The notes: generated by a model from the letters alone, not told the origin. Positions 11,439-26,604 are shown, counted from the stretch's first letter. The stretch is DNA of 26,604 bases from Steroidobacteraceae bacterium (GCA_044238215.1 JBIIDW010000001.1:1-26604); one strand, 5' to 3'. Numbers and translations are program-made.

Positions 11439-12362
11439 TCACTCGCCGCCGGAGCGTGCCCGCGGCCGACCGCTCCAGTTGGTGAGGCTGACGCCGGCTA
11501 CCGCAATGACTCCGCCGAGCAGCAGCGATGCGGCCAGCGGTTCGTCGAGCAGCAGCGCCCCCGCCAGCACGCCGAACACCGGCACCAGGTTGTTGAACAC
11601 GGCCGTGCGCGCCGGTCCGAGCACCTTCACTCCGCGGGCGTACCAGACGAACGCCAGTGCCGTGCCGCCGGCCCCCAGGTAGAAGATCGAGCCGCCGACT
11701 GCCGGCGTCAGGTCGGCGAGGCGCCAGTCCGCCCATTCGGCGGGCATGCCCAGCGTCAGCATCGCCGCGCCCCACAGCGTGCTGACCGCGGTGGTGGCGA
11801 GCGGCGACGGCGCCGCCGGGCCCGCGAGTGCGTAGCGTCCGACGATCGTGTAGGCCGCCCAGGACAGCGCGCCGCCGAACATCAGCCACTCGCCTGCGCC
11901 CACCCGCTGCAGCAGGGCCGCCGGTTCGCCCCGCGACAGCACCAGCGTCACACCGAACAGCGCCAGCGCGATCCCGCACCAGCGGTGGAGCGGCAGCGAC
12001 TCGCGGAACACCAGCGCCATCCCGATCGCCGTCAGGATGGGATTGAGCGCCACCACCAGCGCCGTCCGGCTCGCGGGGATCCGCTCCAGCGCGCCGAGGA
12101 AGAACAGGTTGTAGGCGACCAGCCCGGTGGCGGCCAGCAATGCCGTGCTGACCAGGTCGCGCGGCCGTAGCCGCGGCCAGCCGCCCTCGACCACGCGCAG
12201 CACCGCGGCCAGGATCGCGAAGCCCACCCAGAAACGCAGCGCCGCCAGCGTGAAGTGCGGCAGCACGGGAGCCGCCACGCGACCCGCGACGAAGGTGCCG
12301 CCCCACAGCGCCGCCACGGCGGTGAGCCGCAGGTACAGGCCCGCGTGGCCGGCGTCGCTCAC
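11439..12362 (-). CDS. DMT/EamA-family transporter
   Basis: GTG start. About 10 hydrophobic segments in two repeats: LWGGTFVAGR, LAALRFWV, YNLFFLGALERIPAS..ALVVALNPI, AFVWYARGVKVLGP.RTAVFNNLVPVFGVLAGALLLDE. Confidence 0.92.
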   Translation of the reverse strand: MSDAGHAGLYLRLTAVAALWGGTFVAGRVAAPVLPHFTLAALRFWVGFAILAAVLRVVEGGWPRLRPRDLVSTALLAATGLVAYNLFFLGALERIPASRTALVVALNPILTAIGMALVFRESLPLHRWCGIALALFGVTLVLSRGEPAALLQRVGAGEWLMFGGALSWAAYTIVGRYALAGPAAPSPLATTAVSTLWGAAMLTLGMPAEWADWRLADLTPAVGGSIFYLGAGGTALAFVWYARGVKVLGPARTAVFNNLVPVFGVLAGALLLDEPLAASLLLGGVIAVAGVSLTNWSGRPRARSGGE

Positions 12363-12387
12363 GGCCGCGGTGCGGGAACGAGGGGGA

Positions 12388-13230
12388 TCATCCGGCGATT
12401 GTCCCTGCCGGTCCGCGTTCCCGCCAGATCACGTAGAGCCCTGCCGCGACCACCAGCGCCGCGCCGAGCATCATGTTCGCGGTGGGGATCGCGGCCCAGA
12501 ACACCCAGTCGATGCCGACGCCCCACAGCAGCGCGCTGTACTCGATCGGCGCGACCGTTGAGGCGGGGGCGTGGCGGAACGCCTCGGTGATGTAGTGCTG
12601 GCCGATCGCCCCGAGCGCGCCGGTCGCGGCCACGAGTGCGAGGTGCTCCGGGCGCAGCGCCACCCAACCGGGCGCGGCGATGGCCGTCGACACCACGCCG
12701 GCGACCAGCAGGAAGGACGTCACCAGCGAGGCCGGGCGGTCGGTGCGCAGCGCCAGCCGCGCCGTCACCGCCGCCAGCGCGTAGCACAGCGCCGAGACCG
12801 CGGCGACCAGGCCGGCCCACAGCGGCAGCCCGCCGGCGGCCGGACGCAGGATCACCAGCACGCCCGCCATGCCGACCAGCACCGCGACCCACAGGCCCGC
12901 GGTCGGCCGCTCGCCGAGCAGCAGCACCGCGAGCGCGACGATCAGCAGCGGCGCGGCCATGTAGACCGCGTATACGCCGGCCAGCGAGGCCTCGCGAACC
13001 GCCCAGACGAAGGTGAACAGCATCGCCACGCCGAGCAGGCCGCGCAGCAGGTGCAGCCCCGGTCGCGTCGGACGGATCTCGTGCAGGCGGCCGGCCCACC
13101 ACAGGGGCAGCAGCAGGAACGGCAGCGACGACAGCGCGCGCATCGCCGTGACCTGCATCGGCGGGTAGTGCGCCGCGAAGGTCTTGAGCAGCGCGTCCAT
13201 GAACGAGAAGGCGGCCACGGCCACGAACAT
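12388..13230 (-). CDS. Second DMT/EamA-family transporter (start uncertain: ATG 13230 or in-frame TTG 13365)
   Basis: FSFMDALLK...PPMQV..MR, LHLLRGLLG, APLLIVALAVLLLGER, GVLVILRP, EAFRHAPAS.VAPIEYSALLW and AAGLYVIWRE. Confidence 0.9.
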   Translation of the reverse strand: MFVAVAAFSFMDALLKTFAAHYPPMQVTAMRALSSLPFLLLPLWWAGRLHEIRPTRPGLHLLRGLLGVAMLFTFVWAVREASLAGVYAVYMAAPLLIVALAVLLLGERPTAGLWVAVLVGMAGVLVILRPAAGGLPLWAGLVAAVSALCYALAAVTARLALRTDRPASLVTSFLLVAGVVSTAIAAPGWVALRPEHLALVAATGALGAIGQHYITEAFRHAPASTVAPIEYSALLWGVGIDWVFWAAIPTANMMLGAALVVAAGLYVIWRERGPAGTIAG

Positions 13231-18510: not shown

Positions 18511-19323
18511 ATGGACGCTTCGTCGATCGAGAATTTCCTGCGCACGACCGCCACCGACCTCGCGATCAAGGTGCTGGCCGCCATCGCGTTCTGGATCGTG
18601 GGCCGCTGGCTGATCGGCAAGGTCGTGTCGATGATGCAGGCGGCGATGAACCGCAACGCTGTCGACCCGACGCTGACCAAGTACCTGGGGTCGATCGTCG
18701 CGATCTCGCTGAACATCGCGCTGGTGCTCGGCATCCTCGGCTACTTCGGCATCCAGACCACCTCGGTCGCGGCGATGCTGGCCGGCGCCGGCGTCGCGAT
18801 CGGCGCGGCCTGGAGCGGCATGCTCGGCAACTTCGCCGCGGGCGCGTTCATGCTGGTGCTGCGGCCGTTCAAGGTCGGCGACTTCGTGCAGATCGGCGGC
18901 ATCACGGGCACCGTGCACGAGCTCGGCCTGTTCGGCACCACGATCATCACGCCCGACAACGTCATGACGCTGGTCGGCAACGGCAAGATCTTCGCCGACA
19001 CCATCCAGAACTTCACCGCCCTGCCGGAGCGCCGCGTCGAGCGCACGGCCCAGCTCGCCGGCAGCGTGAACCCCACGGAGGCCATCGAGCGCTTCCGTGC
19101 CGCCGTCGCGAAGATCCCGAACGTGTCGACCGAGAAGGCCCCCGAAGTCAGCCTGCTCGACATGAACCTCGTCGGCCCCGTGATCGCCGTGCGGCCCTAC
19201 TGCCACAACGACCACTACTGGCAGGTCTACTTCGACACGAACGAGGCGATCGTGCGCACCTGCGCCGAGGCCGGCTGGCCTGCGCCGACGCCGGCTACGA
19301 AGATGATCCAGGTGGCGGGCTGA
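18511..19323 (+). CDS. mscS: Small-conductance mechanosensitive channel (MscS family)
   Basis: GGAGGGG SD and three TM segments. AMLAGAGVAIGAAWSGMLGNFAAG..LVLRPFKVGDFVQIGG.TGTV.ELGLF.T.I.TPDN...VGN. Confidence 0.92.
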   Translation: MDASSIENFLRTTATDLAIKVLAAIAFWIVGRWLIGKVVSMMQAAMNRNAVDPTLTKYLGSIVAISLNIALVLGILGYFGIQTTSVAAMLAGAGVAIGAAWSGMLGNFAAGAFMLVLRPFKVGDFVQIGGITGTVHELGLFGTTIITPDNVMTLVGNGKIFADTIQNFTALPERRVERTAQLAGSVNPTEAIERFRAAVAKIPNVSTEKAPEVSLLDMNLVGPVIAVRPYCHNDHYWQVYFDTNEAIVRTCAEAGWPAPTPATKMIQVAG

Positions 19324-20230
19324 GAGCCGCCAGCGCCGCCAGGGTGGCGGCACGAAACGCCAGGCTGACCGGGACGCGCGTGCCGTCCCGAAGCAGGAGT
19401 TCGAGGCTGCGTCCCCGGTCGGTCCAGGACTGGACCCGATCGGGTCGGACCCACCACGAGCGGTGCACCTGGAGTCCGGTCCCGAGGGCGCCCATCTCCT
19501 CGAGGGCGTCGGCGAAGCGGTAGCGCACCAGATCCGTGCCGCGGTCCGAATGGATGCGGACGTAGTGCTCTTCCGCCGTCAGCGCCCAGATCTCGCAGTC
19601 GCGGGGCAGCCGTGAGCGTTCGAGGATCTGCGGCGCCGCGGCGGCTGCCGACGCCTCCAGCGGGGGCAGTGGCGGCGGTGGCGACACCCCCGGCGCCACC
19701 GGCGCGGAAGGCGCAGCCGGTGCCGCATAGCGCAGGCGCGGATACCCCAGCAGTCGGTCGTAGGCGTAGGTGATCGCGGTCATCACGATGGCGCCCGGCG
19801 CCACGGCGCTCGCCAGTTCGAGTCCGTAGATCATCGAGAACTCCGGCAGGGGCGGGTTGCCATACAGCCGGCCCGCGCCCGCGGTGGTTCCGATCCAGCC
19901 GAAGGCCCATCTGTAGAGAGGGCTGAGCAGCAGAGCCTGGCCGACCGCACCGACGAGGCACAGGAACCACAGCGGCGGAGTCCACGGGCGCAGCGCGACC
20001 CAGGCACACCGCGCCACCAGGTGAGCGGTCCACCAGCCCGGAAAGATGAGCAGCAACTGGATGCCCAGCGCGAGGTGCATCGGCAGGACCGCGGCCGGCC
20101 CCGCGCGCATCAGGGTGTAGAGGACCGCCAACCCGGCGGGCACGCCCAGGTAGAACGACAGCCGGATCGCCTGCGGCGACCACGGCCGCCCGTCGGGCTT
20201 GGCCAGCCCCAAACTGCGCTCGAGATTCAT
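19295..20230 (-). CDS. Membrane-anchored LytTR-domain regulator with no receiver domain
   Basis: Four hydrophobic segments, a Pro/Ala linker, then LTAEEHYVRIHS.RG.DLVRYRFADAL.E...GLQVHRSWWV...L.L.DGTRVPVS. Start is ATG 20230 or 20248. The 3' end overlaps mscS by 29 bp. Confidence 0.85.
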   Translation of the reverse strand: MNLERSLGLAKPDGRPWSPQAIRLSFYLGVPAGLAVLYTLMRAGPAAVLPMHLALGIQLLLIFPGWWTAHLVARCAWVALRPWTPPLWFLCLVGAVGQALLLSPLYRWAFGWIGTTAGAGRLYGNPPLPEFSMIYGLELASAVAPGAIVMTAITYAYDRLLGYPRLRYAAPAAPSAPVAPGVSPPPPLPPLEASAAAAAPQILERSRLPRDCEIWALTAEEHYVRIHSDRGTDLVRYRFADALEEMGALGTGLQVHRSWWVRPDRVQSWTDRGRSLELLLRDGTRVPVSLAFRAATLAALAALSPPPGSSS

Positions 20231-20291
20231 GCCAGACCCCCCAGGCACGAAAGCGTCTTTACGCCTTCATCCTACTCCACGACCGCAACTA

Positions 20292-20319
20292 CGCGACATT
20301 TTCCGTCCTGTCCGTGACA
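20292..20319 (+). promoter_or_regulatory. Candidate LytTR direct-repeat binding site
   Basis: CGCGACA (20292-20298) and CGTGACA (20313-20319) repeat with a 21 bp period in the divergent LytTR/DUF1838 intergenic region. Confidence 0.3.
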
Positions 20320-20403
20320 GCGTGGTGGTCGCGCGACCCCCGTGGCGCGGACATTTGACCGGGTGCAGGCGTCGCCTGCAGCCACCTCAGGGGGGGAACG
20401 CAG

Positions 20404-21288
20404 ATGTCCGAAGGAACACGCGGCCGGATGGAGCCGGGTCGAAGGGACGTGCTCGGCGCGCTCGGCGCCGCCGTCATGGCGCCCTGGGTTGCCACGTCGT
20501 CGCCCGCTGCTGCGGCGGGCGCTCCGGTGTCTGCGGCAGGGCGCTGGACCTCGAGCTTCATCCAGCTCGATCCCGTGGAGCAGTTTCGTCAGGTGATGCG
20601 GCTGCAGCGCAGCCTCAGCGATGCCGACGACATCCTGCACTGGTACCACTTCATGATGTTCGCCGTGACCCCCGATGCGCCCACGGCGGCCGTGGTCCGC
20701 TGGGAGGGCATCGAGCTGTCGCGGCACGAACTCATCGGCGAGAACCGCTACCTCATGCACGGCCACAACCTGTCGTATCCACGCGACCTCGACAGCGGCG
20801 AATTCGTCGACACCGTGCTCAATCCGCTGAGCGGCCAGCGCGTGCCGATCGGCCCCATGCGTCTGACCGAGGACCCCGGGCTGATCCGCTCCCCCGAGGG
20901 TACGCTGACGCTCGACCGCCTCGGCCAGCCGCCGCGCCGCGACTACCGCGTGCTGCGGCGCGAGGGCGGCTACGTCAAGGTCGACACCATCCGCGTCCCG
21001 CCCGCGACCTGGCCCAAGCCCTTCATCGAGGGCGGCTTCGAGGGTACGCGGGCTGAACTGTTCGACGATCCGTCGCAGCGCTGGCTGCCCACCGAGGTTT
21101 CCGGGGCCTACGTCTTCCCGTGGCCCAAGTGGATGCAGATGGGCAGTGCCCCCGGACACATGCTCGGCATCTGGAGCGGGCACAAGCTGCGCTCGGTCGA
21201 TGAACTGCCCGACGGGTTCCGGCAGCGGGCGGAGCGCGAGGATCCGCAGCTTCTGCGGGTCGACCGGCGGCGATTCGCCGCGAAGTAG
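20404..21288 (+). CDS. Tat-exported DUF1838-family protein (copy 1)
   Basis: GGGGGG SD and twin-arginine leader GRRDVLGALGAAVMAP...AAA. DPVEQFRQ.MRLQ.SL, HWY...MFAV, RWEG, RDLDSGEFVDT.LNPLSG..VP and PWPKWMQMG..PGH. The family call is from recalled motif pattern. Confidence 0.72.
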   Translation: MSEGTRGRMEPGRRDVLGALGAAVMAPWVATSSPAAAAGAPVSAAGRWTSSFIQLDPVEQFRQVMRLQRSLSDADDILHWYHFMMFAVTPDAPTAAVVRWEGIELSRHELIGENRYLMHGHNLSYPRDLDSGEFVDTVLNPLSGQRVPIGPMRLTEDPGLIRSPEGTLTLDRLGQPPRRDYRVLRREGGYVKVDTIRVPPATWPKPFIEGGFEGTRAELFDDPSQRWLPTEVSGAYVFPWPKWMQMGSAPGHMLGIWSGHKLRSVDELPDGFRQRAEREDPQLLRVDRRRFAAK

Positions 21289-21347
21289 TCGCAGGACATT
21301 CGATATCGGGATCCGGGGGATCCCATGGCAATCAGGGGGGATTCAGC

Positions 21348-23705
21348 ATGAACAATCAGAGCGTGGTGTCGGTTGCGGTAGGCCTGGCGCTGGCGGCTGC
21401 TGCGGGTGCCGCCGGTGCGCAGTCCGGAACGGGCGCGGAGGGCATCGAGGAAGTCGTCGTGACGGCCCGCAAGCGGGTGGAGTCGATCCAGGAAGCTCCG
21501 CTCACGATCCAGGCCTTCACGGCCGACCAGATCGAGGAGCGGGGCGCCGATTCGCTCGCCGACCTCGCGAAATTCGCGCCGGGCCTCACGCTGAACGCCG
21601 GCTCCTCGCGCTCGGCGAGCGACTTCTCCATCCGCGGCATGACGCAGATCTCGCCGGTGGGTGACAACCGCAAGGACCTCGTCACGGTGTTCGTCGACGG
21701 CGTGCCGTACATCGGCAACCCGCTGGGGATCGGCACCGAGGACCTCGCGCGGGTCGAGGTGATCAAGGGACCGCAGTCGGCGCTGTTCGGCCGCGCCACG
21801 TTCGGCGGCGCGATCAGCCTCATCACCACCACGCCGGGCAACGACCTGAAGGGCAAGGTCAGCGCCACGGTCGGCTCCTACGGCGACTATCGGCTGAGCG
21901 GCGCGATCGAGGGCCCGATCCTGCAGGACAAGCTGTCCGGTCGCCTCGTCGTCGACGGCCGCAGCTTCGACGGTTTCTACAAGAACGCCTTCGGGGGGCG
22001 GCTCGGCGAGACCGACCAGCGCTACGTGGCGGGCACGCTCAACTTCACGCCGACCGACAACCTCTCCGTGCGCCTGCGCTGGAGCGACCGGCACGACGAG
22101 GACGGGCCGGCGGCATCGACGCTCATCGCGCGCTACACCGACCACAACTGCGGCCCTTTCCCCAACTTCACGGCCCGTCCGACGGCCGGACTGCCCGCGG
22201 GCATGACGCTGGCGCAGTCGCGCCGCGTGTATTGCGGCGAGCTGCGCGCACCCAGCGGGCCGATCGGCATCAATACGACGCTGCCGGCGAGCACCCTGCC
22301 GCTCATTCCGCTCGATGAACACAAGCTGATCCTCGACCACCAGCTCGGCTCATTGTCGGCGGACTGGAGCTTTGGCGGCGGCTACACGGTCTCGGCGATC
22401 GTCAGCACCCAGGAGCAGAACATCGAGCAGGTGCGCGACTTCGAACTCGCTCCGGAGGACCGCTACCAGGTTTACCTGACCAACGACCAGACCCAGGATA
22501 CCTACGAGCTGCGGCTGACCTCGCCGGCCGATCAGCGACTCAGCTGGATGGTTGGCGTCGCGCGTCTCGACACGACCTTCGAGACGATCGGTGCCTTCAT
22601 CAACGGTGCGCTGTTTGGCACGACCGGCACCCCGACGCCCGGCGCGGCCTCGCTGGTGCCCCAGCGCAGCGCGTCGCAGGCCGACTCGCTCTTCGGCAGC
22701 ATCGGGTTCAGGGTCACCGACGCCTTCGACATCAGCGTCGAGGCGCGGCGCCAGAAGGACCTGCAGACCACGGGGGTGGGTCTGCCGACCCGGTTCAGCG
22801 TCGAGACCACCGCGACGCTGCCGCGCGTGCTGCTGAAGTACGCGCTGAGCGACGCCACCAATCTCTACGCGAACTACGCCAAGGGCAACCAGCCGACCCA
22901 GGGCTATGCCACCTACTTCCAGCTGACGCCGGCGCAGCAGGTGATCGCTTCCGCCAACGGCGTCAACCCTTCGGCACCCGAGGCCGAGGTGGAAAACTAC
23001 GAGATCGGCATCAAGCACCGGTCGGAGGACGGGCGCTGGTACCTCAACGCCTCGCTCTACTACCTCGAGTGGGTGGGGCGCCAGGGCGTGCGCACGGTCC
23101 AGGTGGACCTGAACGGTGACGGCGTGATCACCAACCTGCCGGCGCCCGCGGGCGAGAACTTCAACGTGGTGCCGTTCGCCGCCGGCGACAGCAACAGCCG
23201 CGGCCTCGAGCTCGACGGTGCGGTCCGGCTCGGTGACAACTGGACCGTGGGCGGCAGCGCCGCCTACGCCGACACCGAGATCACCAAGGCACTGAACGAG
23301 ACGGTTCCGCTGCGCTTCCTCGGGATCACCGATGCCAAGGGCTTCGATTTCCCGCTGGTGCCGAAGCTCAGCGGTGCGGCGTACGCCCAGTACTCCAGCG
23401 CCTTGTCCGACAGCCGAAGCTGGTTCGCGCGCGCCGACCTGACCTACATCGGCAAGCGCTACGACAGCATCGCGAACTTCGCCTACGTGCCCGGACAGTT
23501 CCGCGCCAACCTCCGCGCGGGCCTCACCGGGGACCGTTGGGAAGTCGTGGCCTTCGTCAACAACCTGTTCGATGACGACACCCTGGAAGCGTCGCGGTAC
23601 AACAGCGACAGCGCTGCGGACCCGTTCTTCTTCCAGCTGGCGTCGTCCGAGGCAGTGCTGCCGCACAAGCGGCAGGTGGGCGTGACGGCGACGTTCAGGT
23701 TCTGA
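21348..23705 (+). CDS. TonB-dependent outer-membrane receptor
   Basis: Sec leader, IEEVVVTARKRVESIQEAPLTI, plug motifs FSIRG, VFVDGV and RVEVIKGPQSALFGRATFGGAI, then alternating beta-strand pattern and a terminal Phe (RQVGVTATFRF). Confidence 0.96.
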   Translation: MNNQSVVSVAVGLALAAAAGAAGAQSGTGAEGIEEVVVTARKRVESIQEAPLTIQAFTADQIEERGADSLADLAKFAPGLTLNAGSSRSASDFSIRGMTQISPVGDNRKDLVTVFVDGVPYIGNPLGIGTEDLARVEVIKGPQSALFGRATFGGAISLITTTPGNDLKGKVSATVGSYGDYRLSGAIEGPILQDKLSGRLVVDGRSFDGFYKNAFGGRLGETDQRYVAGTLNFTPTDNLSVRLRWSDRHDEDGPAASTLIARYTDHNCGPFPNFTARPTAGLPAGMTLAQSRRVYCGELRAPSGPIGINTTLPASTLPLIPLDEHKLILDHQLGSLSADWSFGGGYTVSAIVSTQEQNIEQVRDFELAPEDRYQVYLTNDQTQDTYELRLTSPADQRLSWMVGVARLDTTFETIGAFINGALFGTTGTPTPGAASLVPQRSASQADSLFGSIGFRVTDAFDISVEARRQKDLQTTGVGLPTRFSVETTATLPRVLLKYALSDATNLYANYAKGNQPTQGYATYFQLTPAQQVIASANGVNPSAPEAEVENYEIGIKHRSEDGRWYLNASLYYLEWVGRQGVRTVQVDLNGDGVITNLPAPAGENFNVVPFAAGDSNSRGLELDGAVRLGDNWTVGGSAAYADTEITKALNETVPLRFLGITDAKGFDFPLVPKLSGAAYAQYSSALSDSRSWFARADLTYIGKRYDSIANFAYVPGQFRANLRAGLTGDRWEVVAFVNNLFDDDTLEASRYNSDSAADPFFFQLASSEAVLPHKRQVGVTATFRF

Positions 23706-24607
23706 TGCGGCGGCGCACGATTCTCGGCGGCGGGGCGCTTGCCCTCGGGCTCGCGGCGGGGCGGCTCCCCGCCGCGACCGACCCGACCACGACGCCGTCC
23801 GTCCGCGAGCTGGCGGCGCGGTTGCGTGGCGGGCCGGCCCTGCTCGAGGCCTTCGTGCGGATGCGCGGCCGCACGGACGGCAAACTCGTCCACGGCTGGC
23901 TGCGCTCGCAGCGCTCCGCCGTCATCGACGGCGAAGTGACACCGCTTTGCGGCGTGCTGGCAGGCGCGGTGCAGCGCTTCGAGCGCCGCTCGGAGGATCT
24001 CTTCGAGGCCACGATCCTCGAGGTGGCGCACTACACGCATCCGGTGACGGGAGAACTGCTCGAGTCCGTGACGATGCCCGGCACCGGCCGCAGCGTGCGG
24101 GTTCCCGCCTACCGCTTCGGTCCGGTCAAGGCGCGCTTCGCCGTGGCGCTCGACGAATGGGAGGAATTCGACCCGCCGCAGGGGGGCTCGGGTGCCGCGG
24201 CCTTCGTCCCCCGGTCCTCCGTGCACCTCGTGCGCTCGCTCGAGCCGGTGGCGTCCCACGGCGATCACATCGCGCTGCGTGCCAACGAATACGGCAGGGT
24301 TCATCCCGAGCGCTCGGCTCCGCCGACGATCTACTACCGCGAGTGGATGGTCTGGAAGGCGCTTGCGAGCGAACTCGCCAGGGAAGGCACGCCTGGAATC
24401 CAGGCCGACTATGCCTACACCGCGCTGACCAGCTGGCGCCCCTGGATGCAGATGGGCGAGCTGCGGGGGCATACGATCGACAGCGGCATCGGCGCCAAGG
24501 CGTTCGACTGGTCGGCCTGTCCGCCCGAGTTCCTGGAGTTGACGCGGCGCCTGCACCCGGACGTCCTCGACGATCCCGAGCGCGCGCTGCGCGCACTGCC
24601 CGCGTGA
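23705..24607 (+). CDS. Tat-exported DUF1838-family protein (copy 2)
   Basis: ATG overlaps the TBDR stop (TGATG). Leader MRRRTILGGGALALGLAA. LEAFVRMRGRTDGKLVHGW, HPVTGELLESV.MP.TG..V.VP and SWRPWMQMG..RGH; visibly homologous to copy 1. Confidence 0.75.
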   Translation: MRRRTILGGGALALGLAAGRLPAATDPTTTPSVRELAARLRGGPALLEAFVRMRGRTDGKLVHGWLRSQRSAVIDGEVTPLCGVLAGAVQRFERRSEDLFEATILEVAHYTHPVTGELLESVTMPGTGRSVRVPAYRFGPVKARFAVALDEWEEFDPPQGGSGAAAFVPRSSVHLVRSLEPVASHGDHIALRANEYGRVHPERSAPPTIYYREWMVWKALASELAREGTPGIQADYAYTALTSWRPWMQMGELRGHTIDSGIGAKAFDWSACPPEFLELTRRLHPDVLDDPERALRALPA

Positions 24608-25545
24608 GGACGCTGGCGCTGTGGTTGGGGCTCGTCGTCGCCTGGGGTGCTGACGCCCAGGCCGGGACCCGGGACTGCGACGTCTGCCCAGAGCTGGTGG
24701 CGATCGCACCCGGTGCATTCACGATGGGCGCCGAGATCGACGAGCCGCGCCGCCTTGGACTGCCGGAATTCTGGGCGACCCGTGAGCAGCCGCGGCACCG
24801 GGTCGTGATCGCGAAGGGCTTCTCCATCGGTCGCTACGAGGTCACGCGCGGCGAGTTCGCGGTTTTCGCCCGCGAGACCGGCTACGGTCCTGCGCCCGGC
24901 TGCTGGCACTTCGTCGGCTCGGAGTGGCTGCTGGACGAGTCGCGCAGCTGGCGCGAGGCCGGCACCGACCAGACCGACGGGCACCCCGTGACCTGCGTGA
25001 ACTGGCACGACGCGCAGGCCTATCTGGCGTGGCTGTCCGCGAAGACCGGCAGGCGATACCGGCTCGCCAGCGAGGCGGAGTGGGAATACGTGGCTCGCGC
25101 CGGGACCGCCACGGCTTACTGGTTCGGTGACGATCCCGCGCAGATCTGCCGCTACGTGAATCTCGGCGATCTCGACACCCGGGACCGCTTTGGCTGGGAC
25201 AAGACCGAGATCAAGTACGAGGTGCTCGAGGACTGGAAGGGCGAGCCCTGCCGTGACGGGTTTGCGGCGATGGCGCCCGTGACCGCGACAGCCGCCAATC
25301 CCTTTGGCGTGCACGGCCTGCTCGGCAACGCCAACGAGTGGATGGCCGACTGCTGGAACGACACTCACGCAGGCGCCCCGGCGGGCGGCGAGGCGCGCCT
25401 GCTCGGGGCCGATTGCGGATTGCGCGTGATGAAGGGCCAGGGCTGGACGGCGATCGCCGCCAGCGTGCGCCCGGCCTTTCGCCTGAAAATGAACGCCACG
25501 GATCGCCGATTCACTTTCGGCTTCCGCGTCGTCCGCGAGGACTGA
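24604..25545 (+). CDS. Secreted FGE-sulfatase-domain (SUMF1/EgtB/PvdO-like) protein
   Basis: GTG overlaps the upstream TGA and the leader ends in AQA. RDCDVCPELV.I.PG.FTMG, EQPRHRV, GRYEVTRGEF, HPVTCVNWHDAQAY..WLS.KTG.RYRL.SEAEWEY.ARAG, NPFGVHGLLGNANEW and FGFRVVRE. Confidence 0.9.
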   Translation: MRTLALWLGLVVAWGADAQAGTRDCDVCPELVAIAPGAFTMGAEIDEPRRLGLPEFWATREQPRHRVVIAKGFSIGRYEVTRGEFAVFARETGYGPAPGCWHFVGSEWLLDESRSWREAGTDQTDGHPVTCVNWHDAQAYLAWLSAKTGRRYRLASEAEWEYVARAGTATAYWFGDDPAQICRYVNLGDLDTRDRFGWDKTEIKYEVLEDWKGEPCRDGFAAMAPVTATAANPFGVHGLLGNANEWMADCWNDTHAGAPAGGEARLLGADCGLRVMKGQGWTAIAASVRPAFRLKMNATDRRFTFGFRVVRED

Positions 25546-25553
25546 ACCCCGGC

Positions 25554-26604
25554 CTAGGTGCGCACCGTGCCGCCCACCCGCTCGGGCACGCGGTAGAACC
25601 ACAGGAACAGCAGCCCCGCCGCGTAGGCGAACGCCGGGATCCAGACGAGGCTCAGCACGACGGCGAACTCCGCGCTCGCCGGCTGCTGCTCCAGCGGCAG
25701 GCTCTTGTCGAAGTGCATGGCCTCCAGCAGCTCGCCGAGCACCAGCGGCCCCAGCGAGTAGCCCAGCCGCTCGATGAACACGTAGACCGAGGTGTACATG
25801 CCCTCGCGGCGCAGGCCGGTCTTCTCGCGGTCGTAGTCGATGGTGTCGAGCCACATCGCCTGGCTGAACAGCAGGATCGCCGACGAGAAGATGCCGGCGA
25901 GCACGCCGCGGAAGATGAAGAAGGCTTCCGACTGGTCCGGGGTCGCCAGCAGCCAGCTCAGCACCGCGAAGACCTCGCCGATGATGCCGATCGCGAGGCC
26001 GGTGCGCTTGGTCATGTGGCGGCCGGCCCAGCGCCAGAACGGGATGAAGGTGATCGTGGCGCCGATCGTCGCGATCGCCAGCAGCGACATCAGCGAGAAG
26101 TCGCGCTTGAGCACCATGACCACGAAGAACGCCGTGGTGGCGCCGCCCGCCGAGAGGGCGAAGAACTGCAGCACCTTGATGCCGACCATCATCATGAACG
26201 GACGGTTGCCGATCACCGCGTTCACCTGGTCGCTGAACGAGTAGCGCGGCTGCACCGCTTCCACCTCGCCGCCGTGCGCACCGCGGGTGCCGAGGAAGGT
26301 CGCGAACATGATCGCGAACACCAGCGCCCCGCCGATCAGGCCCAGGTTCTGGAACGCCTCCGCGTCGCGGCCGAGTTTCTCGACGAGCAGGGGCGCCCCG
26401 GCGCTGCCGGCCACCGAGCCGAACATCATGAACACCGAGCGGTAGCCCATGATGCCGAGCCGCTGCATGCGGTCGTTAGTCATCTCGACCGGCATCGTGA
26501 GGTAGGGCACGTTGAACAGCGTGAAGCCGAGCGAGTAGATCACCAGCACCGCGAGGCACATCGCGACGACGGCGCCGTCGGTGCCGAACAGGTGCTGCGA
26601 ATAC
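25554..26604 (-). CDS. MFS transporter, GPH/MelB-like (5' end lies outside the window)
   Basis: The frame is open to the window edge. FNVPYLTMPVEMT.D...R..IMGYR, NRPFMM, DTIDYD..KTG.RREGMY.SV..FIE.RLG, with multiple TM segments. Confidence 0.9.
   Translation of the reverse strand, partial: YSQHLFGTDGAVVAMCLAVLVIYSLGFTLFNVPYLTMPVEMTNDRMQRLGIMGYRSVFMMFGSVAGSAGAPLLVEKLGRDAEAFQNLGLIGGALVFAIMFATFLGTRGAHGGEVEAVQPRYSFSDQVNAVIGNRPFMMMVGIKVLQFFALSAGGATTAFFVVMVLKRDFSLMSLLAIATIGATITFIPFWRWAGRHMTKRTGLAIGIIGEVFAVLSWLLATPDQSEAFFIFRGVLAGIFSSAILLFSQAMWLDTIDYDREKTGLRREGMYTSVYVFIERLGYSLGPLVLGELLEAMHFDKSLPLEQQPASAEFAVVLSLVWIPAFAYAAGLLFLWFYRVPERVGGTVRT

What the first reader, a model, noticed from the sequence alone, without database searches (positions are those of the whole stretch)
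20404..25545. Candidate undescribed TonB-dependent uptake and processing system: DUF1838 - TBDR - DUF1838 - FGE-like
Seen: four same-strand genes, all with export signals (Tat, Sec, Tat, Sec). The last three are translationally coupled (TGATG at 23703-23707, GTGA at 24604-24607). There is a dedicated divergent regulator and a convergent GPH-type MFS. No SusD-like, glycoside hydrolase, sulfatase or siderophore gene lies within the window. Established: TBDR-centred clusters generally pair the importer with enzymes for its cargo; DUF1838 has no assigned function that I know of. Inference: the two DUF1838 proteins and the FGE-fold protein are the periplasmic processing arm for an unknown organic substrate, so the locus offers a route to DUF1838 function.
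Basis: partly seen in the sequence, partly recalled or inferred. Interest (0 to 1): 0.68.

Follow-up and report, generated by a model that had tools for sequence, protein, structure and literature searches.

The report
DUF1838 barrels, TonB receptor, PvdO-like operon
A lake bacterium carries a tight four-gene operon for an outer-membrane importer, two exported barrel proteins of an unstudied family (DUF1838) and a relative of the pyoverdine-maturation protein PvdO. The same gene set recurs, in shuffled order, in about 20 related species, so it is a real but still unassigned uptake-and-processing module.

Summary
Genes at 20404-21288, 21348-23705, 23705-24607 and 24604-25545 (+) encode DUF1838, a TonB-dependent receptor, DUF1838 and an FGE-fold protein, and both stated overlaps are present.

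- **Recurrence:** the combination recurs. All 19 species whose FGE-fold ortholog is at least 54% identical have a DUF1838 gene within 650 nt of it, and 9 have the receptor ortholog (69-81%) within 8 kb. Several also have a divergent membrane LytTR regulator. Gene order and the DUF1838 subfamily beside the FGE-fold gene vary, so this is a shuffled island, not a fixed operon.
- **FGE-fold protein:** it is PvdO-like (PDB 5HHA, E 4e-40) and lacks the catalytic cysteine pair. The genome's true FGE lies on another contig.
- **DUF1838 proteins:** both model as closed beta-barrels nearest to bilin lyases, BFA1 and nitrobindins. The family has 29 mostly Tat-signalled paralogs here but was found in only 2 of 200 other genomes of the class.
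- **MFS gene:** it is not conserved with the set.

Substrate and chemistry remain unknown, and no transcription evidence was found. The literature holds nothing on the family's function. This scan has noted DUF1838/receptor islands on other DNA before (114 notes).

The parts
19295..20248 (-). Divergent one-component regulator: four hydrophobic N-terminal segments plus a C-terminal LytTR DNA-binding domain (P0119)
   Evidence: PF04397 at 34.2 bits, residues 219-298. Hydropathy windows 28-46, 49-79, 90-113 and 137-163. LytTR homologs (28-43% id) lie divergently beside the TBDR/DUF1838 genes in L060, L061, L062, L076 and L081; one also lies in L077. Only 2 LytTR genes in the MAG.
20249..20403 (.). 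Divergent control region with CGCGACA (20292-20298) and CGTGACA (20313-20319) 21 bp apart
   Evidence: The relatives' LytTR spacers share related CGACATTTTCGCG / TTCGCGTAnCGCGAA-type repeats. No sigma-70 consensus promoter found. Regulator binding is inferred, not shown.
20404..21288 (+). DUFa: Tat-signalled DUF1838 protein (P0001, 294 aa)
   Evidence: PF08894 at 39.3 bits. hhalign against the DUFb group: probability 100%, E 1.8e-41 over 278 columns. AF2 pLDDT 86.3, beta-barrel. VIA Z 10.8 BFA1, 9.7 CpeS, 8.8 Rv2717c. Orthologs at 62-71% id in L073-L076, L078, L083-L085; they lie directly upstream of the FGE-fold gene in five of these (L075, L076, L078, L084, L085).
21308..21324 (+). Perfect 7-bp hairpin GGGATCC-GGG-GGATCCC in the 59-nt DUFa-TBDR spacer
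   Evidence: The fold of the spacer is not better than shuffles (z -0.82) and no T-run follows, so its function is unknown and it is possibly none.
21348..23705 (+). TonB-dependent outer-membrane receptor (P0002, 785 aa)
   Evidence: Plug 73.9 bits and barrel 101.4 bits. Below every NCBIfam cut-off: best TIGR01783 at 158 vs 223.5; SusC TIGR04056 at 34.6 vs 368. PDB similarity is confined to the N-terminal, plug-containing part (FyuA, FpvA, CntO, FoxA). Orthologs at 68-81% id lie within about 3 kb of DUFb in 8 species.
23705..24607 (+). DUFb: Tat-signalled DUF1838 protein (P0003, 300 aa); its start overlaps the TBDR stop
   Evidence: PF08894 at 35.9 bits. AF2 pLDDT 88.8, pTM 0.85. VIA Z 10.8 CpeS, 10.4 BFA1, 9.7 DUF3598, 9.6 Rv2717c. 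Orthologs at 59-77% id in 9 of 36 same-genus genomes searched.
24604..25545 (+). PvdO-like FGE-fold protein (P0004, 313 aa), Sec signal, GTG start overlapping the DUFb stop
   Evidence: PF03781 at 164.7 bits. NCBIfam PvdO at 171.7 bits, cut-off 500. PDB 5HHA PvdO E 4.4e-40. No Cys at the FGE Cys-pair positions in P0004 or 17 orthologs, whereas the paralog on C54 has FLCTDEYCARYR. Eight Cys are at least 90% conserved across the alignment.
25554..26603 (-). Convergent MFS_2/GPH-like transporter, 5' end cut by the window edge; context only
   Evidence: PF13347 at 165.9 bits. Found in 0 of 19 ortholog loci. In this genome, however, MFS_2 genes also sit next to a DUF1838 gene (C174) and next to the second PvdO-like gene (C286).

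Best explanation
The four genes form the envelope arm of a substrate-specific uptake and periplasmic handling module in an uncultured freshwater Steroidobacteraceae bacterium. The module is probably controlled by the divergent membrane-bound LytTR regulator.

Shown: the domain identities, the gene overlaps, the export motifs, the predicted folds and the recurrence of the same orthologous set in about 20 species.

Inferred:
(1) The TonB-dependent receptor imports an unidentified organic solute.
(2) The two Tat-exported DUF1838 proteins are closed calycin-like beta-barrels of the bilin-lyase / nitrobindin / fatty-acid-binding type. Each binds, and possibly converts, a small molecule in or at the mouth of the barrel. 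Each orthologous group has its own invariant set of polar residues.
(3) The Sec-exported, disulfide-rich PvdO-like protein cannot make formylglycine. It performs or assists an oxidative or tailoring step on the cargo, or on the product of a Tat-exported partner. PvdO plays such a role after the oxidase PvdP in pyoverdine maturation.

The substrate is unknown. The neighbours of DUF1838 islands (amine oxidase, CN-hydrolase, beta-lactamase-family and alpha/beta hydrolases) point to dissolved organic compounds, possibly nitrogen-containing or aromatic ones.
For: Operon anatomy.

Domains.

Recurrence: FGE-fold orthologs of at least 54% id have a DUF1838 gene within 650 nt in 19 of 19 species-representative loci. 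Only 1 of 21 loci with more distant FGE-fold genes (45% id or less) has a DUF1838 gene within 8 kb. The TBDR ortholog (69-81%), DUFb (69-77%), DUFa (62-71%) and a third subfamily (38-44% to DUFa) co-locate in shuffled orders. LytTR is divergent in at least 6 loci.

Export: the RR pair is invariant in both ortholog sets. About 22 of 26 own paralogs with an intact N-terminus carry RR motifs.

Fold: two independent models of paralogs with 20% identity give the same top soluble matches, namely CpeS, BFA1, DUF3598, Rv2717c/nitrobindin and CpeT.

Subfamily-specific invariant polar residues: the DUFa/DUFc group has R66 R69 Y81 E101 E104 S106 H119 H121 N122 S124 R127 D128 K192 R197 E209 Y236. The DUFb group has R54 R70 C82 R91 E106 Y110 Y136 R137 E151 R192 R198 Y211 E213.

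PvdO likeness and absence of the Cys pair. PvdO is needed in vivo for the last chromophore oxidation, is inactive alone and always occurs with PvdP (PMC6206403).

Parallel locus C286 in the same genome: a Tat-signalled flavin amine oxidase is followed by a second Cys-less FGE-fold gene, flanked by a TBDR and an MFS_2 gene.
Against: No transcription data: no RNA holder was found, so co-transcription is inferred from spacing only. No ligand, cofactor or activity is known for any DUF1838 protein. The DUF1838 subfamily adjacent to the FGE-fold gene differs between species, which argues against one fixed DUF1838/PvdO-like complex. Because the islands are dense in DUF1838 genes, adjacency to some DUF1838 gene is partly a by-product. 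Across 21 own paralogs only Pro/Gly/Trp/Met/Asn positions are conserved, so there is no family-wide catalytic signature. Most own paralogs sit beside unrelated genes. No conserved inner-membrane transporter or cytoplasmic catabolic genes were identified with the set.
Confidence: 0.55

Rival explanations
1. Metal-chelate or tetrapyrrole acquisition. The receptor imports a ferric xenosiderophore, haem or a bilin-like pigment. The DUF1838 barrels hold it in the periplasm, and the PvdO-like protein modifies the chromophore to release or recycle it.
For: The best NCBIfam and PDB similarities of the receptor are to siderophore, pyoverdine and metallophore receptors. The closest characterised relative of P0004 is PvdO of pyoverdine maturation. 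The nearest soluble folds to both DUF1838 models bind bilins or haem: CpeS, CpeT, CpcT, nitrobindin, UnaG and a haemophore.
Against: The receptor scores below the siderophore-family cut-off (158 vs 223.5), and its PDB similarity is confined to the N-terminal, plug-containing part. There is no STN/FecR signalling domain, no periplasmic-binding-protein/ABC importer, no reductase and no haem oxygenase in the window. A 29-copy family whose neighbours include hydrolases and amine oxidase fits nutrient catabolism better. Fold matches at Z 8-11 show barrel geometry only.
Confidence: 0.15
2. Maturation of a self-made secreted metabolite, by analogy with pyoverdine. The exported proteins tailor a product in the periplasm and the receptor takes the finished compound back up.
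For: PvdO acts in periplasmic biosynthesis. DUF1838 genes lie in or beside the aurantimycin and kettapeptin clusters of Streptomyces.
Against: No NRPS, PKS, exporter or precursor genes were found in the window ORFs scanned, and none were noticed in the related loci, where flanks were only partly annotated. The Streptomyces DUF1838 genes have no assigned role, and one sits at the cluster edge.
Confidence: 0.08
3. No joint function. DUF1838 genes are abundant general periplasmic proteins, and their adjacency to the receptor and the FGE-fold gene reflects paralog density and local synteny among close relatives.
For: There are 29 paralogs, most beside unrelated genes. The adjacent subfamily varies. 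Some flanking genes, such as the AMP-binding acs-like gene, are simply syntenic in several relatives.
Against: The same orthologous groups stay together despite inversions and re-ordering, including in other families of the order (L079 = G060). The window shows translational coupling. The contrast is 19/19 versus 1/21 between close and distant FGE-fold loci. In this genome there are about 5 DUF1838-TBDR adjacencies against about 1.2 expected; this is my own estimate from the counts.
Confidence: 0.1
4. P0004 is a true formylglycine-generating enzyme that matures a periplasmic sulfatase.
For: FGE-sulfatase domain. The genome has about 5-6 PF00884 hits.
Against: The Cys pair is absent in P0004 and in all 17 orthologs, while the paralog on C54 keeps it. 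No sulfatase gene lies in the window or on the related loci examined.
Confidence: 0.02

Closest known systems
PvdO of Pseudomonas aeruginosa (PDB 5HHA), the periplasmic FGE-fold protein of pyoverdine maturation
   Same: Best solved-structure match of P0004 (E 4.4e-40, two stretches covering residues 23-312) and best NCBIfam model. Shared features: the N-terminal DCxxCPE motif, aligned cysteines, exported location, no FGE Cys pair, and a gene that follows a Tat-exported partner.
   Different: Scores 171.7 bits against the equivalog cut-off of 500. No pvdP/M/N or NRPS genes nearby. The partner here is a DUF1838 barrel rather than the PvdP oxidase. The biochemical activity of PvdO itself has never been shown in vitro (PMC6206403).
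Pfam PF08894 (DUF1838), protein of unknown function
   Same: Both P0001 and P0003 exceed the gathering threshold and are homologous over their full length.
   Different: Nothing functional is known to compare with. These two belong to low-scoring, divergent subfamilies (36-39 bits, against up to 239 bits for other paralogs in the same genome).
TonB-dependent-receptor nutrient loci of Proteobacteria (for example the 'CUT' loci of Xanthomonas) and SusC/SusD loci of Bacteroidota (comparison from general knowledge)
   Same: An outer-membrane TonB-dependent importer is encoded with exported proteins and a dedicated regulator.
   Different: No SusD, no glycoside hydrolase, and the receptor is not SusC-type (34.6 bits vs 368). 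The accessory proteins are DUF1838 barrels and a PvdO-like protein.
S/T-type phycobiliprotein lyases (CpeS 4TQ2, CpeT 5HI8, CpcT 4O4O), BFA1 (5YVF) and nitrobindin-type barrels (2FR2, 3WJB, 3IA8)
   Same: Closest soluble structural matches of both DUF1838 models (Z 7-11, 125-157 aligned residues, rmsd 3.2-4.0 A): closed antiparallel barrels that enclose a ligand.
   Different: 4-9% sequence identity. No sequence or profile relation was detected. Outer-membrane barrels score just as high, so the match shows geometry, not homology. DUF1838 adds N- and C-terminal helices.

Membership tests
Pfam DUF1838 (PF08894) | HMM score above the gathering threshold (25 bits) | tested here: met
   P0001 39.3 bits, P0003 35.9 bits. 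Profile-profile comparison of the two groups: probability 100%.
TonB-dependent receptor | N-terminal plug domain plus C-terminal beta-barrel domain | tested here: met
   PF07715 73.9 bits, PF00593 101.4 bits.
TonB-dependent receptor | Signal peptide, TonB box and C-terminal aromatic residue | tested here: met
   Read from the translation: a signal-like N-terminus, IEEVVVTA after it, and a protein ending ...TATFRF. Judged by eye only.
TonB-dependent siderophore receptor (TIGR01783) | Score above the curated cut-off of 223.5 bits | tested here: not met
   158 bits.
SusC/RagA-type PUL transporter | TIGR04056 score above cut-off and an adjacent SusD gene | tested here: not met
   34.6 vs 368.25 bits. 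No SusD among the scanned window ORFs.
Formylglycine-generating enzyme (sensu stricto) | FGE-sulfatase fold domain | tested here: met
   PF03781 164.7 bits.
Formylglycine-generating enzyme (sensu stricto) | Two active-site cysteines that bind copper (feature as described in bioRxiv 10.1101/2021.05.21.445229) | tested here: not met
   In alignment A3 the C54 paralog has FLCTDEYC where P0004 and its 17 orthologs have WTAI---AAS.
Formylglycine-generating enzyme (sensu stricto) | A sulfatase substrate gene in the neighbourhood | tested here: not met
   None in the window ORFs scanned. The PF00884 hits lie on other contigs.
PvdO (dihydropyoverdine dehydrogenase, NF051459) | Equivalog score of at least 500 bits | tested here: not met
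   171.7 bits: a relative, not an ortholog.
PvdO (dihydropyoverdine dehydrogenase, NF051459) | Occurrence with pvdP and other pyoverdine genes | tested here: not met
   No such genes among the window ORFs scanned. The genome as a whole was not searched for pvdP.
LytTR transcription regulators | LytTR DNA-binding domain | tested here: met
   PF04397 34.2 bits vs 22.6. There is no receiver domain; four hydrophobic segments replace it.
Tat-exported proteins | Conserved twin-arginine motif before a hydrophobic stretch | tested here: met
   RR is invariant in A1 and A2 and present in about 22 of 26 own paralogs. Actual export is not testable with these tools.
Calycin-like ligand-binding barrels (bilin lyases, nitrobindin, FABP) | Structural match standing clearly above unrelated folds | tested here: inconclusive
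   Z 7-11 for these, but outer-membrane barrels score the same. Foldseek gave no clear hit.

The most novel reading that the evidence does not exclude
DUF1838 is a large, unrecognised family of Tat-exported periplasmic barrel enzymes, possibly carrying a metal or another cofactor (the DUFa/DUFc group has an invariant HxHN...RD constellation). Its subfamilies each transform a different imported organic compound. Cysteine-less PvdO-like FGE-fold proteins are their dedicated redox or tailoring partners. That would generalise the PvdP/PvdO relationship of pyoverdine maturation to the catabolism of dissolved organic matter.
Probability: 0.2. Interest if true: 0.75.

Novelty: new variant of a known kind. 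Interest (0 to 1): 0.5.

Why it matters
TonB-dependent receptors are the main route by which many aquatic Proteobacteria take up scarce organic compounds, yet what happens to the cargo in the periplasm is mostly unknown. This lineage has expanded one uncharacterised exported family to 29 copies. It keeps a defined subset of them together with one receptor, one regulator and a PvdO-like protein across about 20 species.

That gives a compact, testable set of four soluble or membrane proteins with clear orthologs. From it the function of DUF1838, and of the many orphan cysteine-less FGE-fold proteins, could be worked out. It may also shed light on PvdO itself, whose biochemical activity has never been reconstituted.

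Tried and rejected
- **Piperazate synthase idea.** The only two papers mentioning DUF1838 concern piperazate-containing peptides. I tested whether DUF1838 equals the piperazate synthase KtzT and rejected it: piperazate synthases are PaiB-like split barrels with haem (PMC13274692), and the Streptomyces DUF1838 genes have no assigned role.
I reconstructed neighbourhoods with the genome search, the fetch from genomes, the search for related loci and scripts instead.
- **Sequence and profile searches of the PDB** with P0001, P0003 and A1 found nothing. A cytochrome P460 hit at E 0.1 is not significant, and there is no CXXCH motif.
- **Foldseek against the PDB** gave no clear match.
- **ESM Atlas** was uninformative.
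- **Pfam at E up to 10** gave no second family for either DUF1838 protein.
- **Transcription.** No RNA holder was listed. Two metatranscriptome runs from a study that holds the DNA gave no usable cover, so there is no evidence either way on expression.
- **Spacer hairpin** 21308-21324 does not fold better than shuffles. No terminator or sigma-70 promoter consensus was found in the locus.
- **MFS_2 as a conserved member** is rejected for the ortholog loci.
- **A fixed DUFb/PvdO-like pair** is rejected, because the adjacent subfamily varies.
- **Upstream partners of distant FGE-fold genes** (L087-L108): I began a survey and abandoned it because my simple gene finder was too noisy there.
Full report
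**What is there**

The window is contig C553 of a 2.77-Mb, 74%-complete metagenome-assembled genome with about 72% G+C. Names on close database relatives and on related contigs place it among uncultured freshwater Steroidobacteraceae. The locus occurs nearly identically in at least 18 lake-water metagenome runs beyond the two possible source samples.

- 20404-21288: P0001, called DUFa here, DUF1838 at 39 bits.
- 21348-23705: P0002, plug plus barrel of a TonB-dependent receptor.
- 23705-24607: P0003, called DUFb here, DUF1838 at 36 bits.
- 24604-25545: P0004, FGE-sulfatase domain at 165 bits.

The TGATG and GTGA overlaps are real, and the first gap is 59 nt. Both DUF1838 proteins start with twin-arginine motifs that are invariant in their orthologs. 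The receptor and P0004 have Sec-like signals, judged by eye. Upstream and divergent lies a LytTR protein with four hydrophobic segments and no receiver domain. Downstream and convergent lies an MFS_2/GPH-like transporter, with 8 nt between the two stops.

The rest of the window is housekeeping or unrelated: fmt, a NtrY/NtrX-like pair, argS, priA, EamA transporters, an OmpA-like protein, ASCH, HNH, glyoxalase and MscS.

**The FGE-fold protein is PvdO-like, not an FGE**

Its best NCBIfam model is PvdO (172 bits, far below the 500-bit equivalog cut-off). Its best solved relative is PvdO 5HHA (E 4.4e-40).

The genome has three FGE-fold genes. The one on contig C54 keeps the canonical copper-binding pair (GGSFLCTDEYCARYR). 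P0004, all 17 orthologs aligned with it, and the third paralog on C286 have no cysteine at those positions. Eight other cysteines are conserved, as expected for a disulfide-bonded periplasmic protein.

According to the pyoverdine review (PMC6206403), PvdO is required in vivo for the last oxidation of the chromophore. It carries no detectable cofactor when purified, is inactive alone, and always co-occurs with the oxidase PvdP. FGE folds can also be purely binding modules, as in the T6SS immunity protein Tsi3 (bioRxiv 10.1101/2021.05.21.445229).

**DUF1838**

The MAG holds 29 DUF1838 ORFs, 56 TBDR ORFs and only 3 FGE-fold ORFs. In a sample of 200 other genomes drawn evenly from the class, the family was found in 2. 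It was found in none of 14 model genomes. This is therefore a lineage-specific expansion.

About 22 of 26 paralogs with an intact N-terminus have RR motifs. Across 21 full-length paralogs only Asn/Pro/Gly/Trp/Met positions are conserved, namely the NP..G and PWMxMG..PG motifs. Each orthologous group nevertheless has many invariant polar residues:
- DUFa/DUFc group: R66 R69 Y81 E101 E104 S106 H119 H121 N122 S124 R127 D128 K192 R197 E209 Y236.
- DUFb group: R54 R70 C82 R91 E106 Y110 Y136 R137 E151 and others.

DUFa and DUFb are 20% identical but clearly homologous over 278 columns.

AlphaFold models of both are confident (pLDDT 88.8 and 86.3). Each shows a closed antiparallel barrel with N- and C-terminal helices. 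Foldseek found nothing clear. The exhaustive aligner gave, for both models independently, the same best soluble matches:
- the bilin lyase CpeS (Z 10.8 and 9.7),
- BFA1 (10.4 and 10.8),
- DUF3598 (9.7 and 8.7),
- Rv2717c and nitrobindins (7.3-9.6),
- CpeT (7.5 and 7.8).

Outer-membrane barrels score equally, so this establishes the barrel architecture and not homology. No paper in the library assigns a function.

**Recurrence**

DUFb orthologs (59-77% id) occur in 9 of 36 same-genus genomes searched, and weaker relatives occur in four other families of the order. I fetched the flanks of these matches. I also fetched 40 loci encoding relatives of P0004 from species-representative genomes, and scanned both sets with profiles built from this genome's paralogs.

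All 19 loci whose FGE-fold gene is at least 54% identical have a DUF1838 gene within 650 nt of it. In 12 it is upstream on the same strand with a gap of -19 to +74 nt; in 6 it is upstream on the opposite strand; in 1 it is downstream. Among the 21 loci with more distant FGE-fold genes (45% id or less; Nitrotoga, alphaproteobacteria and others), only one has a DUF1838 gene within 8 kb.

Nine of the 19 also hold the receptor ortholog (69-81% id) within 8 kb. LytTR homologs sit divergently beside the receptor/DUF1838 genes in L060, L061, L062, L076 and L081, and one also lies in L077.

The order is not fixed. Examples:
- G009: TBDR-DUFb-FGE.
- G006 and L078: [DUFb<TBDR<] [>DUFc>DUFa>FGE].
- G028: LytTR< >DUF >DUF >TBDR <DUFc >DUFb >DUFd >FGE.

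The DUF1838 gene touching the FGE-fold gene is DUFb-type in the window, G009, L072 and L080. It is DUFa-type in five loci, a third subfamily (DUFc) in six, and others elsewhere. The window's operon reads as the DUFa>FGE unit with the TBDR>DUFb unit set between its two genes. In this MAG the DUFc and DUFd orthologs lie on other contigs (C437, C234).

In more distant relatives (G060, G056) the DUFb-like gene follows a TBDR and a beta-lactamase-family hydrolase. MFS_2 was not found in any of the 19 loci.

**A parallel inside the same genome**

Contig C286 encodes a Tat-signalled flavin amine oxidase followed directly by the second cysteine-less FGE-fold gene. It has a convergent TBDR and a nearby MFS_2 gene. 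Both PvdO-like genes of this organism therefore follow a Tat-exported gene and sit by a receptor. This recalls the PvdP/PvdO pairing and is the basis of the more novel reading.

**How it most likely works**

I read the locus as a LytTR-controlled envelope module with these steps:
- TonB-dependent import of an unidentified organic solute.
- Binding or conversion of it by two specialised DUF1838 barrels in the periplasm.
- An oxidative or tailoring step, or assistance to one, by the PvdO-like protein.

The steps that are shown are identity, spacing, export motifs, predicted fold and conserved co-location. Cargo, chemistry, physical interactions, regulation and co-transcription are all inferred.

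Points against the reading:
- There is no RNA evidence.
- The subfamily adjacency varies.
- No family-wide catalytic signature exists.
- Many paralogs sit in unrelated contexts.

The rival explanations, in order of weight, are metal-chelate or tetrapyrrole uptake, maturation of a self-made product, mere paralog density, and true FGE function (excluded by the missing cysteines).

**Comparison and novelty**

The general kind of system, a TonB-receptor locus with exported accessory proteins and its own regulator, is known. The accessory set here (DUF1838 barrels plus a PvdO-like protein) is not described in the literature searched.

Earlier notes of this scan report DUF1838/receptor islands in at least 65 other genomes and DUF1838-FGE pairs in a few. 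My results agree with them. They add the 19/19 association for this FGE-fold subfamily, the two-unit anatomy, the identification of the genome's true FGE, and the C286 parallel.

I rate it a new variant of a known kind, of moderate interest. It is a good experimental entry point, but no mechanism is established.

Noticed in passing
Own genome contig C286 (locus L109: 4515-12491): A second cysteine-less PvdO-like FGE-fold gene (about 8760-9707 +) directly follows a Tat-signalled flavin amine oxidase (about 7267-8742 +). It is flanked by an MFS_2 gene (4515-6344 -) and a convergent TonB-dependent receptor (10257-12491 -).
   Followed up: partly
Own genome contig C54 (locus L110: 4543-5715 +): The only FGE-fold gene of the MAG with the canonical Cys pair (GGSFLCTDEYCARYR). 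It is the likely true sulfatase-maturing enzyme; about 5-6 sulfatase-family hits lie on other contigs (C55, C552, C257, C163, C355).
   Followed up: partly
window 20292-20298 and 20313-20319; loci L060, L061, L062, L076, L081 upstream of their LytTR genes: The LytTR/DUFa spacer has CGCGACA and CGTGACA 21 bp apart. The equivalent spacers of relatives share CGACATTTTCGCG and repeated TTCGCGTAnCGCGAA-like elements, so this is a candidate conserved operator.
   Followed up: partly
window 21308-21324: A perfect hairpin GGGATCC-GGG-GGATCCC lies between the DUFa stop and the TBDR start. It has no T-run, and the fold is not better than shuffles.
   Followed up: yes
Own genome contigs C58 (260-3889) and C395 (7243-9584): Tandem arrays of three and of two DUF1838 genes. 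C395 also carries alpha/beta-hydrolase and molybdopterin-dehydrogenase-type genes next to them. On C226 the DUF1838 match lies in a stretch where the crude ORF map shows a long CN-hydrolase reading frame next to a metallo-beta-lactamase-fold gene.
   Followed up: partly
L089 7908-8873 and L086 7944-8872: In two related species the FGE-fold ortholog is split over two or three reading frames or ORFs (an in-frame stop or frameshifts). This suggests decay or assembly error in those genomes.
   Followed up: no
L064 2983-4179 (-) and L065 8223-9422 (+): In two other families of the order a beta-lactamase-family (PF00144) gene sits between a TonB-dependent receptor and the DUFb-like gene.
   Followed up: partly
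window 8933-11287 (-): priA is read as two ORFs (8933-9769 and 9851-11287).
   Followed up: no
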